A stretch of DNA of 64,000 bases from Podarcis pityusensis (lineage: Eukaryota). This document shows positions 36,701 to 48,200 of the stretch, one piece after another (position 1 is the first letter of the stretch; every line of letters begins with the position of its first letter). Position numbers: made by a program. The DNA is taken from NCBI GenBank assembly GCA_964106645.2, contig OZ067050.1. One strand, 5' to 3'.

Positions 36701-39213
36701 TGGGAAATAGGCCACTGCTTTGTGCATCATTGTTAATCCAGATGTCTGCAAATGGAAATTTTCTTATTGCATAGCACCAAGGCTAAGCGCACACGCACGC
36801 GCACACACACACACACAATAAAATAAAATTAAAACTTGATATGAAGAGGGAGAGAGATCAAGCCGAGGACTGCTGGGTTAAACATTATGCTAATGTAAAC
36901 GAGGGAGTGGGTCTTTTGTTCAGCATAGTAATCATGTTTCCAATAGGGTGGTGTAGTCCATCCTGTGCCTTGCACTAGTCGCCTATCATATTCCCTGTAG
37001 CTCAGAATATAATGGATGTTCCTTCATGGGAGGGTAGGGGGAGAGAGAGAGCTGTGTTCCCAGCTGGTGGAAAATTTAGGACATTGGTAGCCTGACCAGC
37101 ATGAGGAGACTGCTGAATACCATCTGCACCACAGAAAAATTCTTAGGCAAGACAGGATGGGGCTGATGGGAGTGAGTCACAGAATCATAGGGTTTTATTT
37201 TGTTTTAAGCTCGTGTGCTGCTGTTTCCTCAGTGCTGCACACCATTATTTTCTGGGTCAGTGCAGCAGGGGAGCATATGCCCGCGCTGCCCAGGGCGGGC
37301 GAGCTCCCGAGGGGTGTGTGGCATGGAGGGTGCCCTCCCAGGTGCGGGATAGCCACTCGGGTGCCCGGAGCAAGCCGTCCATGGCAGACATTCAGCATGC
37401 TGCCCGCCCACGACTCCCAAGCCTCCCCCAAGCTGTCAAAACGAAGGGGAAAGCGGGGAATGGCACCGGCAAAGCGGCGCAGCTCCCCCCCTTACCCCGA
37501 CGGCTTGGGGTAGGCTTGGGAGTCGTGGACGGCATGCCGAATGTTACCCCCCTCACTGTATGTTACTGGCTTTCATTATATTCCACCTTTCCTCTAAGGT
37601 GGTCAAGGCAGCAGTCAAGCCACCCTCATTTTCTTCATCACCACCATCATCATCATCACAAAGTAGGGCTGTGCTGACTAATAGTCACTGGCCCAAGGTG
37701 AACTCATTCTTGAACTGGGATTTGAGGCTTCCCCCATGCCAAGTCCCAACAATAGTACCTTACTGAGGACATTGCTAAATAATTTTGCAGCTCGTTCAGA
37801 TAGATTGGGAATCAAGCAAGCCAGCAAGCAGCAGTGAAAATGATGTGACAGAGATAAGCACCGCTGGAGTCTACTGTCCCAAATCAGGATAAGCGTAGCA
37901 GGAGATCACCTGCCTGTTTTAACAAAAAATTAATTACAAGCCAAGTAATAATAAATAAAATATGCAAGCAGGCTTGTTAGTTAATAATAATAATAATAAT
38001 GCCACATTTATTAAACAACAGCACTATCCAGTCATAATTAAGTAATAATACAGCAATGAAAATTATAGCTGTAGTTTAAAAACAGCTTAGAATGATTGAG
38101 GCAGAAGCCTGCTCTGTCATTAAACATGACATACTAATGGCCCTCCACTTCCTCTCTGAAGGCTGCACAGAGAAGCATTCCCCACCACTTTTATCCTCAT
38201 AAACAACACAGTGAGTTAGGTTAGGCACAGAGATAGCGCCGCCTAGTGAATTCCGTGGTTAAGTGGGGATTTGAACCCAGGTCTCTCTCATCTACGGCAA
38301 GCGTCCTAACCATGACATCATGCAGATTTACCTCTTAGTGGTAGCGCGTTAGAAGCTAAAAGCTAAAAAAGCAGGACTCCTGAGGGAGGGAAACCCAATG
38401 TATCAGGACAGGTGAGTCTGGGCACCAGGAGTCCTGAGCTCAGGTTGGGAGGTGGGCAAGAGAGGGGTGAGGGGTGGGAGAGGGGTGTTTCACAGCTGTG
38501 CCTTCCTCTACTTCATCACATGCCCATCTTCAGTGCCTCCTCCTCACACATCCTCTGTCTGTTTCTCCTACCCCTTTTCATTTCCATCCATTGCTCCTAC
38601 CCCCTATCCTTCCCCCTCTACCCCACTGCCCACCAAACCCGGGCCCCATAGGCGCCCGCCGCCTGCCGCAGCCAGCATCAGACTCCTCTGCCACCTCCTG
38701 GTACCTGCATGACTACAATGCCAACGCGGCCCCCTGGAAGCATGAGTAGGATGCCTGGAATGCAGGGAATTGGTGAGTAGGCTCCCCACATCACCCCACT
38801 CCCCACCCCATTACTCACTCTTGCAATTTAGTCCTCCTTGTCGCTTTCCTTCCCTGCAAAACTCGCCACCATTGACCACTTTGAAGCTCCCCTCCTCCAG
38901 CACCTAGAGTTACCAGCTGCATTTCTGGTAGGGCTCAGATGAAGAATAAACCGGTTGAAGCGAGGAACCAAAATGTTCCACCCATAGTTGCATGGACAGG
39001 AAAGCAAAAATGAAAAAATGCCAAGAAAGAAACGGAAGCAGCCATTTTGGGGCTCGTTGGATCCTGCTGGATCACTACTAACCTACATAGCATCTAGCTG
39101 GATCCTCAGGATTTCCCTAGAGGAAGAGGACTGGGCTTTATTGGTTCTCCCTGGTGTGGTGGGCATAGTAATGTCAAAATAAGGCCTCTAAAATAAATAA
39201 AAAGATAGATGGT

Positions 39214-39252
<39 letters not shown>

Positions 39253-45200: not shown

Positions 45201-48200
45201 TAGAGAGGCTCCAGCTGTGTGTTGTCTGCACTGTAAACTGCAGTCCCTTCCCTTGGAAGCTGCTGTGACTGAACACACCACATGTAGTGATCACCTTCTG
45301 CCCCTAGGTGCCACATAGGATGCCACGAGGGCACTTACCTGTCCCCTTTCCACACATAATATGCTAAGCAACTATGTTACAGTTCAAAACAGGCTCAATT
45401 CCCATGCATCTCGTCCCCCTGGCCTGTTTTAAGAGGAATGCAAGCACGGTGTACATGTTTTTGCTTGTGTTGCATGCCTAGCTTTGTGGGGAACCTATCT
45501 GTGAGCATGTAATGGGGGGCAGTGAGGATTTCTGCTTCCTAGGGAAACAGAGGAGAGATGTAGGAAAGGATATAGGGTGGAGCAGCAGGAAGCCAGGCTA
45601 GGATTCTCCAGAGAATGAAAAGCATATAGTCAGTTCCCCACAGTACAAGATCAGCTTATATGAAAGACTATTTGCTACTTTTTTTTCTAATTATGTTTAC
45701 AAAAAACCTACCACAATCTTTAAATGGCAATCATGTAAGCCAAGCCAGTATTATTATTGGCAATGCTAATTTCAGGAGGGGTTTTTTTTGAGGGGGGAGC
45801 AGTCCCTTGGGCAAGACATTCTCAGTGCTCCCATCAGCCAAACAGGCCCACTTTGTTCTGCTTGCCACTGTTCCCACTGCCTATTTCCTGGCCTCTCCCT
45901 CTGTGCCCAATTCACAGCACTTTCCAGAGGGAAAGGGCAAAACATGCAGAGGTTACTGCAGAGGCATGTAGAGGTTCTCCTCACCCATATAAGGTAGATG
46001 AACAGGCTGCATCAACAGCAGAGAGGAGGAGCAGTCAGGCTAGGAGGTTCTGAGAGTCAACAGTGGCAACCCTTGACAGCAGCCCTAATTATTACGGAAA
46101 AGTTTAACCTTTTCCTGCTTTGCTGTGGTCTTGACAAAAAGTGTTCCTTTGAAGCTGCTCTTTGCAGGAAGAAGAAACTGGGGCAAATGGGAGATTTCTT
46201 CACAGTGCGGTACAGTCCCAGTTTCAGAGGCAGGATTCCCCCTCCCTCCACAGCTGCTGCGGTTCTAAACATGATCAGCTCCCTCCAGCTGATGCTAAGA
46301 GTTTTGTTTTGTTTTTAAAGGCTGAATGTTAAATGCAAAGAGGCATCCATTTAAGGTCACGTCTCGTTTGGCCCTCAGCAAGTTCAGTTTCAGCTAACAG
46401 CTCATGCTCTTCAAGACTGAGGCCACAGAGCTTCCAGTTAAGGAATGCTTTGGCTTAGAATTATAATTGTGGGATAATGTTTCCAAGTTCAACATGGAAG
46501 ATCGAGCCTGAGACTGGTTGTAGAAGGTAACATTGATTTGGGAGATGGTCAAGAATGGTGGTATGACACACAGGCAGGCACAGGCTGACTGACAGCCCAA
46601 GGAACCCAAACCAGGGTTGGCAGCTTTGCACAGCTTTCTGGGATATTTTGTCCGCATGTGGCATCTGAAGCTTGCTGAGCTGATAGCTACAACCCTGCCC
46701 TCTAGCAATCTAGAGCAGCAGCACTGGGGAAGGGTTATAGTTCAGTGATAGAGCACAAGCATTGTGTGCAGAACATCCCAGATTCAATTCCTTTAATTTT
46801 CAGGTGGCAAGTCTGATAAAGACTTCGGCCTGAAACCTTGGAGAACTAATGGCAATTAGAGTAAGACAGTGGCTATGTTTGAACATCAGCCAGTGGCTCC
46901 ATAAACCTTCATAAATTTGGCTTAATGTCATTTAACAAGCTGGGATCTGCTCAGCCAAAATTATCTTGGTTTGTTAATCAGCATCAAGACTAGAGTTCCT
47001 TGCTTCAGACCTAACAGGGAACTTTTGGTAAAAGCAAAATCTTTGCCAAATCCCAGGGCATGAAGGAAAGGTCGAAGGAGAAGCACCAGGCCACAGTGCG
47101 CAGCCACAGCTTCATTGAATGTATGAAGCCATCAACAAATCTCCAGATGTGGCCAGTGCTGAGCTAAGAGGACCAAGAATCTAGTATATCAGGCATATGA
47201 AGTGTAGCAGAGGGCAGCTCCCTCCTCTAGCATGCTGCTATGGTTGCTAGTGCCAGAGTCCCTACTGTGAGAGAGTCAGGGCCTTAACTTGACCTGTGTT
47301 CCTCTTCCCCCGTTCACCCCTTTCACTTCTCTCCTTTCCCCACAGCGCTTCCAACAGGCTATGAGAAGTCCCACAGCCTGAACAGCATTGCTGGACTGCG
47401 CCTGTCTCCGGCGCCCACTCCTTTCGGCTCGCCTGGTTCCGTCCGACGTCCCCGCTCGCCCATCCCTTCCATCCTATAGAGACGCACCAGGGATGCTTGG
47501 GGTTAGCTTGTATGTTCGTTTATTTTTTAAAAAAATATATAGAGAAGAAAAAGAAAAAAAATAAGGTAATGCCAAAAAAAAAAGGAAAAAGAAAACAAAG
47601 GCGGTCAAATGCATTGGAACAAGTAAAACACAGGAGGCATCTCACAGGTGATGTTGCACTAAAGTTTGCACTTTCTGGAGTGTCCATGAGAATCCCGAGG
47701 CCTGAAGCCTTCTGTTCCCGTGGCTATGGATCAAGAGTGGGGCTTAAATAATTTACCGGCGGGAGGGTGAATGCGGGGGGCTGGCTTGCTCAGAAAATCC
47801 AAATACTCCGAAGAGGAGGAGGTCACTGAGAGATGGACACTGCAGGAAAGGGGCTCTGGCCCTCCTCTCTGGGTTGCCTGCATTTCTCCCCCTCTTCAAC
47901 CTCACTAGAGTGCACGATTTTTCTCTGGCCCTGGCTTTGCGCTTTATTTCTCTCCCTTTAGTGCTCTTCCCCTTTTCATCATCTTACTCAGGACTGCAAT
48001 GAGCCATAGAGCTTAGTGACAAACTTCCTTGGACTTCTCTCTCTCTCTCTCTCTCTCTCTCTAACACTGTAATCTGTTTTCAGTCTACCAATCTCCATAA
48101 AACATATTTCCAAGTGTCAAAACTATCCACACTTTAGATATCCACCCAGTCTTTCTCTCTCTCTGTCTCTTTCTCTCTCTCTTCTTCCTTACTTACTGAG

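What the first reader, a model, noticed from the sequence alone, without database searches (positions are those of the whole stretch)
38652..47479. Array of phase-1 'tail cassette' exons, each with its own stop placed to escape NMD
Seen: after exon 3 (phase 1), three short exons each supply a different C-terminus and stop close to their donor: 38652-38772 (stop 23 nt before donor), 42318-42360 (5 nt) and 43896-43955 (43 nt). The GYEK..PSIL exon follows; it is coding if all are skipped and UTR otherwise. Known: stops <50-55 nt upstream of the last junction evade NMD, and Kv3 C-termini control subcellular targeting. Inference: including one cassette gives a stable isoform, while including two puts the first stop more than 50 nt from the final junction and triggers NMD. 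That would be NMD-enforced mutual exclusivity, a tail selector with at least 4 tails. Alternative Kv3 tails are known; this architecture is my inference.
Basis: partly seen in the sequence, partly recalled or inferred. Interest (0 to 1): 0.75.

Follow-up and report, generated by a model that had tools for sequence, protein, structure and literature searches.

The report
Alternative tail exons of a lizard Kv3 channel gene
The 3' end of a lizard or snake Kv3.3-type potassium channel gene carries small alternative exons that give the channel different C-terminal tails, which is a known habit of this gene family, and the proposed quality-control "selector" mechanism remains untested.

Summary
The gene is a squamate Kv3 channel, probably the KCNC3 orthologue, and is not human.

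- **c1 (38652-38772)** is a real, ancient exon. Its tail matches a Pogona isoform 32 of 32. Nine of 10 inferred substitutions in three other squamates are silent in that frame (P=0.005).
- **c2 (42318-42360)** is a real exon. An Anolis sagrei isoform ends in its exact tail, and Lerista conserves it 14 of 14 in another frame.
- **c3 (43896-43955)** sits at a conservation peak in two unnamed ORFs. No protein model seen here uses it.
- **The GYEK..PSIL exon** is coding when all three are skipped, and it has a second acceptor 12 nt upstream.

From sequence alone the pattern is not beyond chance: 20 comparable AG..GT candidates lie in the same intron.

The NMD arithmetic holds (65-126 nt for multiple inclusion), but it follows almost automatically from the exon sizes. 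The Anolis model joins c1 to c2, which argues against strict exclusivity. Alternative Kv3.3 tails of these two ancient types are already published.

Overall the anatomy is largely supported. The selector mechanism is unproven.

The parts
4687..5286 (+). Coding exon 1: N-terminal inactivation 'ball' ([14 protein letters not shown]...) and T1/BTB domain
   Evidence: Pfam BTB_2 at 3.7e-29 and the Shal-type N-terminal model at 4.6e-10. It is 94.5% identical to Anolis sagrei P0009 residues 1-200.
19767..20700 (+). Coding exon 2: S1-S6 membrane core and proximal C-terminus; ends in phase 1 before GTAAGG
   Evidence: Pfam Ion_trans at 1.6e-47. The best solved structure is KCNC1 at 5.8e-181. Sequence; donor score 7.65.
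29633..29827 (+). Coding exon 3 (195 nt), shared by all isoforms; ends in phase 1 before the weak donor AAG|GTACAT
   Evidence: It is 100% identical to six named squamate representatives (P0004-P0009) and 98% to P0010 and P0011.
29828..29886 (+). Possible read-through tail [19 protein letters not shown] if the exon 3 donor is not used; AATAAA lies at 29975
   Evidence: This is inference only. Many database hits carry 'GT...' read-through tails.
38652..38772 (+). c1: 121-nt internal exon encoding the ancient ...LHDYNANAAPWKHE* tail; stop at 38747-38749, 23 nt before donor GTGAGT
   Evidence: 32 of 32 residues match the end of Pogona isoform X1, P0010. It aligns to the Ambystoma and Spea tails at E 5e-4 and 0.003. 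Nine of 10 inferred substitutions are silent in this frame, P=0.0054. The Anolis model uses both its acceptor and its donor.
38945..38950 (+). AATAAA 173 nt downstream of the c1 donor; possible alternative end of c1 transcripts
   Evidence: About one such hexamer per 1.5 kb is expected by chance (my estimate), so this is weak evidence.
42318..42360 (+). c2: 43-nt cassette encoding GSTLYSRNAPTA*; stop at 42353-42355, 5 nt before donor GTACGT
   Evidence: 12 of 12 residues match the end of Anolis sagrei isoform X2, P0009. 14 of 14 match in frame 0 in the Lerista model P0122. An intron stretch 330 nt upstream is only 57% identical in the same model.
43896..43955 (+). c3: 60-nt exon-like element, ALITA* in phase 1; stop at 43910-43912, 43 nt before donor GTCAGC. 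Its use is unproven.
   Evidence: Acceptor score 6.4 and donor score 3.45. Its first 13-15 codons are identical in two unnamed ORFs, P0124 and P0125, while the flanks fall to 67-75% and then 42-46%. No protein model ends in ALITA: 0 of the 99 tails read.
43813..43982 (+). Conserved island around c3 (about 80 nt upstream, the exon, and about 27 nt downstream)
   Evidence: tblastn of P0124 and P0125 against the window.
47346..47357 (+). Upstream tandem acceptor adding ALPT before GYEK
   Evidence: Acceptor score 10.6, against 2.1 at 47358. P0004 and P0006 read ALPAGYEK and Lerista P0122 reads VLPTGYEK.
47358..47479 (+). Terminal coding exon [40 protein letters not shown]; inferred to be 3' UTR when a cassette is included
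   Evidence: 31 of the 99 tails read are of PSIL type.

Best explanation
This is the alternatively spliced 3' end of a squamate Kv3.3-type (probable KCNC3) potassium channel gene.

After the shared exon 3, the pre-mRNA can be spliced in these ways:
- straight to the last exon, giving the GYEK...PSIL tail, with or without ALPT from a tandem acceptor;
- through c1, giving the ancient ...NANAAPWKHE tail;
- through c2, giving GSTLYSRNAPTA;
- perhaps through c3, giving ALITA.

c1 and c2 are internal exons with working donors, so the PSIL exon then most likely serves as 3' UTR.

What is shown:
- the exon borders, frames and stops;
- the use of c1 and c2 in other squamates' isoform models;
- purifying selection on the c1 tail frame;
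- conservation peaks at c2 and c3.

What is inferred: regulated splicing in neurons sets the tail choice and serves channel targeting, as in other Kv3 genes. Each stop lies 5-43 nt from its donor, so single-inclusion mRNAs satisfy the 50-55 nt rule and should be stable. Multi-inclusion mRNAs that stop in the first cassette would carry a junction 65-126 nt downstream and are predicted NMD substrates. I take that as an automatic by-product that cleans up splicing noise. I do not take it as the device that selects the tail.
For: **Gene identity.** Pfam finds BTB_2, Ion_trans and the N-terminal ball. The best solved structure is KCNC1 at 5.8e-181. The exon 3 search returned 143 proteins at E<=0.001 among 171 candidates. 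The closest are squamate records named 'KCNC1-like', followed by turtle, alligator and echidna 'KCNC3' and fish 'kcnc3a/b'.

**c1.** Pogona X1 ends with the identical 32 residues. Eleven of the 99 tails read are of the same NANAA..W type, from ray-finned fish to squamates. Nine of 10 inferred substitutions in Anolis, Lerista and Ophiophagus fall on third positions of the tail frame and are silent there, P=0.0054. None of the three shows an indel between the stop and the donor.

**c2.** Anolis sagrei X2 ends in GSTLYSRNAPTA and enters c2 from the c1 donor. Lerista conserves all 14 codons in frame 0.

**c3.** It lies at a conservation peak, with the acceptor AG and the donor GTCAGC kept in P0124 and P0125.

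**PSIL exon.** It is coding in P0004-P0007.

**Distances.** The 50-55 nt rule is from PMC7764535 (passages).

**Published tails.** 'WIKP' and 'PSIL' tails of zebrafish kcnc3a are aligned to rat Kcnc3, with no effect on gating and a suggested targeting role (PMC2933717, passages).
Against: - I had no transcript data for this species or any other. Protein models stop at the stop codon, so they do not show what follows a cassette in the mRNA.
- c3 is used by none of the 99 tails read. By splice-site score alone it is one of about 6 comparable AG..GT pairs in the intron.
- My matrix scores the c1 acceptor poorly, at -3.6.
- An AATAAA 173 nt after c1 could make c1 a terminal exon in some transcripts.
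- The Anolis model that proves the c1-to-c2 junction reads c1 in a second frame. It reaches that frame through an extra 24-residue exon that I could not find in the window, so part of that model may be artefact.
- The Lerista and Ophiophagus proteins are 'hypothetical' gene-finder models.
- Orthology to KCNC3 rests on names and similarity. It does not rest on a tree or on synteny. PMC10241522 describes a separate sauropsid KCNC1L paralogue.
Confidence: 0.65

Rival explanations
1. One reading: NMD is the selector. The stop positions and exon lengths have been shaped so that exactly one cassette can be included, and every double inclusion is destroyed. This would make the cassettes mutually exclusive at the level of stable mRNA.
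For: The arithmetic fits. Single inclusion gives 23, 5 and 43 nt. Double and triple inclusion give 65, 66, 83 and 126 nt. The c1 stop-to-donor stretch shows no indel in three other squamates. c3 stays within about 40-45 nt despite indels in its C-run. The introns between cassettes are 1535-3545 nt long, so nothing steric prevents double inclusion and another filter would be needed. NMD policing of mutually exclusive exons is known: FGFR2 (PMC7764535) and 14 of 19 non-3n clusters in C. elegans (PMC4165533).
Against: - The condition for 'double inclusion means more than 55 nt' is met by nearly any exon of ordinary size, so it carries no information.
- For c2 and c3 the short single-inclusion distance is forced by exon length.
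- 65-66 nt is marginal.
- Anolis sagrei X2 is a public model with c1 and c2 together.
- c3 is unproven.
- In the listing, none of the 12 papers shown (of 138) holds both a KCNC term and 'nonsense-mediated'.
Confidence: 0.12
2. The cassettes, above all c1, act mainly as alternative terminal exons with their own poly(A) sites. The PSIL exon would then never be their 3' UTR, and NMD would be irrelevant.
For: AATAAA lies at 38945, 173 nt after the c1 donor, with two more at 39192 and 39196. An A-rich AATAAA cluster lies at 42783-42797 after c2. PMC2933717 treats the 'W...' tail as encoded by a distal C-terminal exon.
Against: A consensus donor GTGAGT follows the c1 stop by 23 nt. That donor is kept in Ophiophagus, whose ORF runs into it (...GIGE), and is used in the Anolis and Lerista models. 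About one AATAAA or ATTAAA per 1.5 kb is expected by chance in this sequence (my estimate). c3 has none within about 970 nt.
Confidence: 0.15
3. c3 is not an exon but a conserved intronic element, such as a splicing regulator of the neighbouring tail exons. Its AG..GT borders and early stop would then be coincidence.
For: No model uses it: 0 of the 99 tails read. Conservation extends about 80 nt upstream and 27 nt downstream of the proposed exon. The 3' part tolerates indels, including a frame-shifting one. The donor GTCAGC is mediocre, scoring 3.45. Twenty decoy candidates exist in the intron.
Against: The conservation peak starts at the proposed acceptor. Both splice dinucleotides and the donor hexamer are kept in both ORFs. 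Conserved intron flanks are also typical of regulated alternative exons (my own knowledge). A 5-residue tail isoform would have been merged into 90%-identity clusters whose members I could not list.
Confidence: 0.35

Closest known systems
Alternative distal C-termini of Kv3.3 (zebrafish kcnc3a 'WIKP' and 'PSIL' variants, aligned to rat Kcnc3; Mock et al. 2010, PMC2933717)
   Same: The layout is the same: exon 1 (N-terminus), exon 2 (S1-S6), exon 3 (proximal C-terminus), then alternative distal exons. c1 is the 'W-x-x-x-stop' tail and the last exon is the 'PSIL' tail.
   Different: The window has two further short stop-bearing elements (c2, c3) between the two ancient tail exons, and a tandem acceptor on the PSIL exon. 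In the passages I read, the paper says nothing about whether the first tail exon is internal or about NMD.
Kv3.1a/Kv3.1b and the other mammalian Kv3 C-terminal splice variants (reviews cited in PMC10241522, PMC12184066 and PMC6088260)
   Same: All four Kv3 genes vary mainly in the C-terminal tail. The tails affect trafficking and phosphorylation more than gating (passages).
   Different: I could not read the exon-level architecture of the mammalian variants, because the primary papers and the main review are not held. My recollection that some Kv3 variants arise from stop-bearing cassettes with shared 3' sequence is unverified.
NMD-policed mutually exclusive exons (FGFR2 IIIb/IIIc; C. elegans clusters, PMC4165533; review PMC7764535)
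   Same: Unwanted exon combinations are predicted to be removed by NMD.
   Different: In those cases the premature stop arises from a frameshift between homologous exons of like size. Here the cassettes are unrelated and each already carries a stop. Only the stop's distance to the last junction would change, and no NMD dependence has been shown here.
NMD triggered by splicing in the 3' UTR (the hnRNPA2B1 example in PMC7764535)
   Same: In a double-inclusion mRNA the second cassette is in effect an extra 3' UTR exon. It would place a junction more than 55 nt after the stop.
   Different: That system is autoregulatory control of expression level. It is not a choice among protein tails.

Membership tests
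Kv3 (Shaw-type, KCNC) voltage-gated K+ channel gene | T1/BTB tetramerisation domain plus a six-helix ion-transport core most similar to KCNC proteins | tested here: met
   Pfam BTB_2 at 3.7e-29 and Ion_trans at 1.6e-47. The best solved structure is KCNC1 at 5.8e-181, against 1e-64 for Kv1.
Kv3.3 / KCNC3 orthologue | Closest relatives are KCNC3 genes; N-terminal inactivation ball; conserved synteny | tested here: inconclusive
   Exon 3 hits are named KCNC3 in alligator, turtles, echidna and fish, but KCNC1-like in squamates, amphibians and skate. The ball is present. I made no tree and no synteny check. PMC10241522 reports frequent KCNC3/KCNC1-like mislabelling and a separate KCNC1L paralogue, and its figure supplements were not available to me.
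Kv3.3 alternative distal tails ('W...' and 'PSIL') | Two alternative exons after exon 3 encoding ...NANAA.W... and GYEK...PSIL | tested here: met
   c1 matches the Pogona tail 32 of 32 and aligns to amphibian tails. The PSIL exon is 95-98% identical to squamate tails. Among the 99 tails read, 11 are NANAA-W type and 31 are PSIL type.
NMD-immune stop in a penultimate exon (50-55 nt rule) | [quoted passage not shown] | tested here: met
   23, 5 and 43 nt, provided each cassette is spliced directly to the PSIL exon and that exon is the last. Rule from PMC7764535.
NMD-immune stop in a penultimate exon (50-55 nt rule) | The cassette is really spliced to the downstream terminal exon in mRNA | not testable with these tools
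   No transcript or vertebrate genome collection was available. Only the c1-to-c2 junction is visible, in Anolis P0009. The c2-to-final junction appears only in the gene-finder model P0122.
NMD-enforced mutually exclusive exons | Only single-inclusion forms among stable mRNAs | tested here: inconclusive
   One public isoform model (Anolis sagrei X2) contains c1 and c2 together. This speaks against strict exclusivity, but it is a prediction with an extra frame-shifting exon.
NMD-enforced mutually exclusive exons | Multi-inclusion forms rise when NMD is blocked | not testable with these tools
   This needs an experiment.
NMD-enforced mutually exclusive exons | Exons of a cluster are usually homologous and of like length | tested here: not met
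   The lengths are 121, 43 and 60 nt. Local alignment scores were reached by 334, 14 and 90 of 500 shuffles.

The most novel reading that the evidence does not exclude
A 'distance-shift' tail selector. An array of unrelated stop-bearing cassettes shares one terminal exon. Stable mRNAs are limited to one cassette because any second cassette moves the first stop beyond the 50-55 nt limit. The stop-to-donor distances of c1, c2 and c3 would be held under 50 nt by selection across squamates. The extra frame-shifting exon seen in Anolis would then be a way to license a c1+c2 combination.
Probability: 0.12. Interest if true: 0.65.

Novelty: new member of a known kind. Interest (0 to 1): 0.3.

Why it matters
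Kv3 tails steer channels to axons, dendrites or terminals of fast-firing neurons. A reptile gene that keeps both ancient Kv3.3 tails and adds lineage-conserved short tails is a useful comparative case for how tail repertoires evolve. If NMD really limited the array to one cassette per mRNA, it would be a simple way of enforcing exclusive choice among non-homologous terminal cassettes, and other genes could be checked for it. As it stands, the finding mostly documents ordinary, already modelled alternative splicing.

Tried and rejected
1. **Tails from other species.** I looked in the window for the extra 24-residue exon of Anolis X2 and for the odd tails of Phrynosoma, Alligator and Polyodon. 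Nothing was convincing. The best hits had E 0.19-0.53, and the best hit for the Anolis exon lay downstream of c3, out of order. The stretch 36840-37320 showed no exon.
2. **Frame B of c1.** This frame is open and is used in the Anolis, Lerista and Ophiophagus models. I rejected it as a conserved coding frame because 9 of 10 replacements in it are silent in the tail frame.
3. **Homology among the cassettes.** There is none.
4. **Rfam over 29800-48000.** Nothing lies at the cassettes. Only sub-threshold mir-5408 and mir-584-like palindromes were found elsewhere.
5. **Cluster members.** Isoforms such as Sceloporus X1-X3 stayed unseen.
6. **Papers not held.** Goldman-Wohl 1994 and the Kaczmarek and Zhang review were not available.
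7. **Slips and dropped steps.** translated the last exon in the wrong frame, which was my slip. A fold of the cassette regions failed on length and was dropped as not needed.
8. **Limits of the splice scan.** The splice matrix uses frequencies recalled from memory and misjudges the proven c1 acceptor. Its counts are therefore only a rough chance estimate.

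
Full report
**What the window is.** The window has no N. On the + strand it holds a Kv3 potassium channel gene.
- Exon 1 (4687-5286) encodes an N-terminal inactivation ball and the T1/BTB domain.
- Exon 2 (19767-20700) encodes the S1-S6 core.
- Exon 3 (29633-29827) encodes the proximal C-terminus.

The best solved relative of exon 2 is KCNC1 at 5.8e-181. 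I searched with exon 3 alone (64 residues, longer proteins allowed). That gave 143 proteins at E<=0.001 among 171 candidates, of which 120 were listed. Six named squamate representatives are 100% identical. Amphibian 'KCNC1-like' proteins are 94-95% identical, alligator, turtle and echidna 'KCNC3' 70-88%, and fish 'kcnc3a/b' lower. The gene is therefore squamate and not human, and it is probably the KCNC3 (Kv3.3) orthologue. PMC10241522 (passages) reports that sauropsid KCNC3 is often labelled KCNC1-like. It also reports a separate KCNC1L paralogue. I made no tree and no synteny check, so the exact orthology stays open.

All searches were made exon by exon. I left out the step of joining the exons into a spliced model and searching or folding it, so no isoform-level search was made. 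Frames across junctions were worked out from coordinates.

**The observation.** Exon 3 ends one base into a codon. Read in that phase, the cassettes give these tails:

| Cassette | Coordinates | Length | Tail | Stop to donor |
|---|---|---|---|---|
| c1 | 38652-38772 | 121 nt | GARRLPQPASDSSATSWYLHDYNANAAPWKHE* | 23 nt |
| c2 | 42318-42360 | 43 nt | GSTLYSRNAPTA* | 5 nt |
| c3 | 43896-43955 | 60 nt | ALITA* | 43 nt |

The last coding exon starts at 47358 (GYEK...PSIL, stop at 47477-47479). It has a stronger acceptor 12 nt upstream, at 47346, which would add ALPT.

**Chance.** Sequence alone does not single these three out. I scanned the intron 29840-47330 with a simple splice matrix whose frequencies I recalled, so it is approximate. 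Of these, 57 have a phase-1 stop and 20 have the stop within 50 nt of the donor. In a 43-nt or a 60-nt exon any stop is necessarily close to the donor.

**c1 is real and ancient.**
- Pogona vitticeps isoform X1 (P0010) ends in exactly the c1 tail, 32 of 32 residues.
- The same kind of tail (...LHDLNANAASWIKQ and similar) ends 11 of the 99 hit tails I could read, from ray-finned fish to squamates.
- It is the published 'WIKP'-type tail of zebrafish kcnc3a, which its authors aligned to rat Kcnc3 (PMC2933717, passages).
- Three database proteins read c1 in another, open frame: Anolis sagrei X2 (P0009) and gene-finder models from Lerista (P0122) and Ophiophagus (P0123). I used them as indirect nucleotide evidence. 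Ten residue replacements fall upstream of the tail-frame stop. Nine are explained by a single base change at a third position of the tail frame and are silent there. Against an expected share of 46%, this gives P=0.0054.
- The tail frame is therefore the selected one and the other frame is not.
- None of the three species has an indel between the stop and the donor, and the Ophiophagus ORF reads straight into GTGAG. By parsimony the 23-nt distance is shared among these squamates.

**c2 is real.** Anolis sagrei X2 ends in GSTLYSRNAPTA, 12 of 12. It enters c2 from the c1 donor, which shows that both the c1 donor and the c2 acceptor are used in that model. The Lerista model reads c2 in frame 0 with all 14 codons identical. 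An intron stretch about 330 nt upstream (41895-41984) is only 57% identical in the same model.

**c3 is plausible but unproven.** My last homology search used 42 residues around c3 in its one open frame. The exon alone was under the tool's 40-residue minimum. The search found 2 proteins among 198 candidates, both unnamed ORFs, P0124 and P0125.
- The first 13-15 codons of c3 are identical in both.
- The upstream flank is 67-75% identical, and more distant flanks 42-46%.
- The acceptor AG and the donor GTCAGC are kept.
- The C-run in the 3' part carries a 3-nt deletion in one ORF and a frame-shifting indel in the other.

So c3 sits on a conservation peak, and its stop-to-donor distance would remain about 40-45 nt. 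However, none of the 99 tails read ends in ALITA. I could not list the isoforms hidden inside 90%-identity clusters.

**The interpretation.** The arithmetic is right: 66 nt for c1+c2, 83 for c1+c3, 65 for c2+c3 and 126 for all three. The rule is that a junction more than 50-55 nt downstream of a stop triggers NMD (PMC7764535, passages). Four points weaken the step from 'compatible' to 'enforced'.
1. With d=23, any downstream exon over 32 nt pushes the stop past 55 nt. With d=5, any exon over 50 nt does. Ordinary exons meet this without selection.
2. 65-66 nt is marginal. The same review notes exceptions to the rule, in which stops less than 50 nt upstream of the last junction still undergo NMD.
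3. A public model joins c1 and c2. There an extra 24-residue exon shifts c1 into its second frame, so translation ends in c2, 5 nt from the c2 donor. I could not find that extra exon in the window.
4. I could not see what follows the cassettes in any mRNA. An AATAAA lies 173 nt after the c1 donor, although one such hexamer per 1.5 kb is about the chance rate (my estimate).

The introns between cassettes are 1535-3545 nt long and the cassettes are unrelated in sequence. This differs from classic mutually exclusive clusters (PMC4165533).

**Most likely mechanism.** This is regulated alternative splicing of a conserved set of tail exons. It yields at least three supported tails, or four counting the ALPT variant. 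ALITA and a possible exon-3 read-through tail, [19 protein letters not shown], are unproven extras. By analogy with other Kv3 genes the tails would serve targeting (passages). The PSIL end resembles a PDZ-type ligand. That resemblance is my own reading. PMC13282929 cites a PDZ-binding motif in a Kv3.3 C-terminus. NMD probably tolerates the single-inclusion forms and may trim stray multi-inclusion forms.

**Novelty.** The W-type and PSIL tails of Kv3.3 are published, and c1 and c2 are already in public isoform models. Only c3 and the NMD idea are new, and both are untested. In the literature search, none of the 12 papers listed (of 138) held both a KCNC term and 'nonsense-mediated'. That is not an exhaustive negative.

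**Not checked.**
- No vertebrate genome or transcript collection was available.
- Paper supplements were closed. The additional files of PMC2933717 and the figure supplements of PMC10241522 may bear on tail alignments and orthology.

Noticed in passing
window 47346-47358: Tandem acceptors 12 nt apart on the PSIL exon. The upstream one scores much higher (10.6 against 2.1) and adds ALPT. Both forms occur in squamate models: ALPAGYEK in P0004 and P0006, GYEK in P0005 and P0007.
   Followed up: partly
window 29828-29980: The exon 3 donor is weak (AAG|GTACAT, score 1.6). Reading through it gives a 19-residue tail, [19 protein letters not shown], and an AATAAA lies at 29975. Many database hits have 'GT...' read-through tails, so a short isoform is possible.
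   Followed up: partly
window 38652-38771: c1 is open in a second reading frame (APAACRSQHQTPLPPPGTCMTTMPTRPPGSMSRMPGMQGI). One RefSeq-style model and two gene-finder models use it. Substitution patterns say it is not the conserved frame. All three inferred changes after the tail-frame stop (exon nt 101, 110, 119) also fall on the same codon position, which three events cannot explain.
   Followed up: yes
window 41895-41984: This stretch aligns at 57% to an 'exon' in the Lerista gene-finder model that lies between c1 and c2. It is probably an artefact of that model. It served here as a yardstick for intron divergence.
   Followed up: partly
window 40007-40090 and 44734-44816: Palindromic matches to the mir-5408 family (and to mir-584 at the first site). 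The first site hits on both strands, and all matches are below the Rfam gathering score. They look like copies of a hairpin-forming repeat in the tail-exon introns.
   Followed up: no
window 2001-4700: A strongly purine-rich, G-skewed stretch lies upstream of and into the 5' end of the gene (GC skew 0.52 and AT skew 0.35 at 2001-4000). It has long low-complexity open frames on both strands and is presumably the promoter and 5' UTR region.
   Followed up: no
window about 14540, 15130, 15460-15800, 26090, 61720-61790: Several CA/TG dinucleotide microsatellites, seen as HTHTHT or VCVCVC runs in the ORF listing.
   Followed up: no
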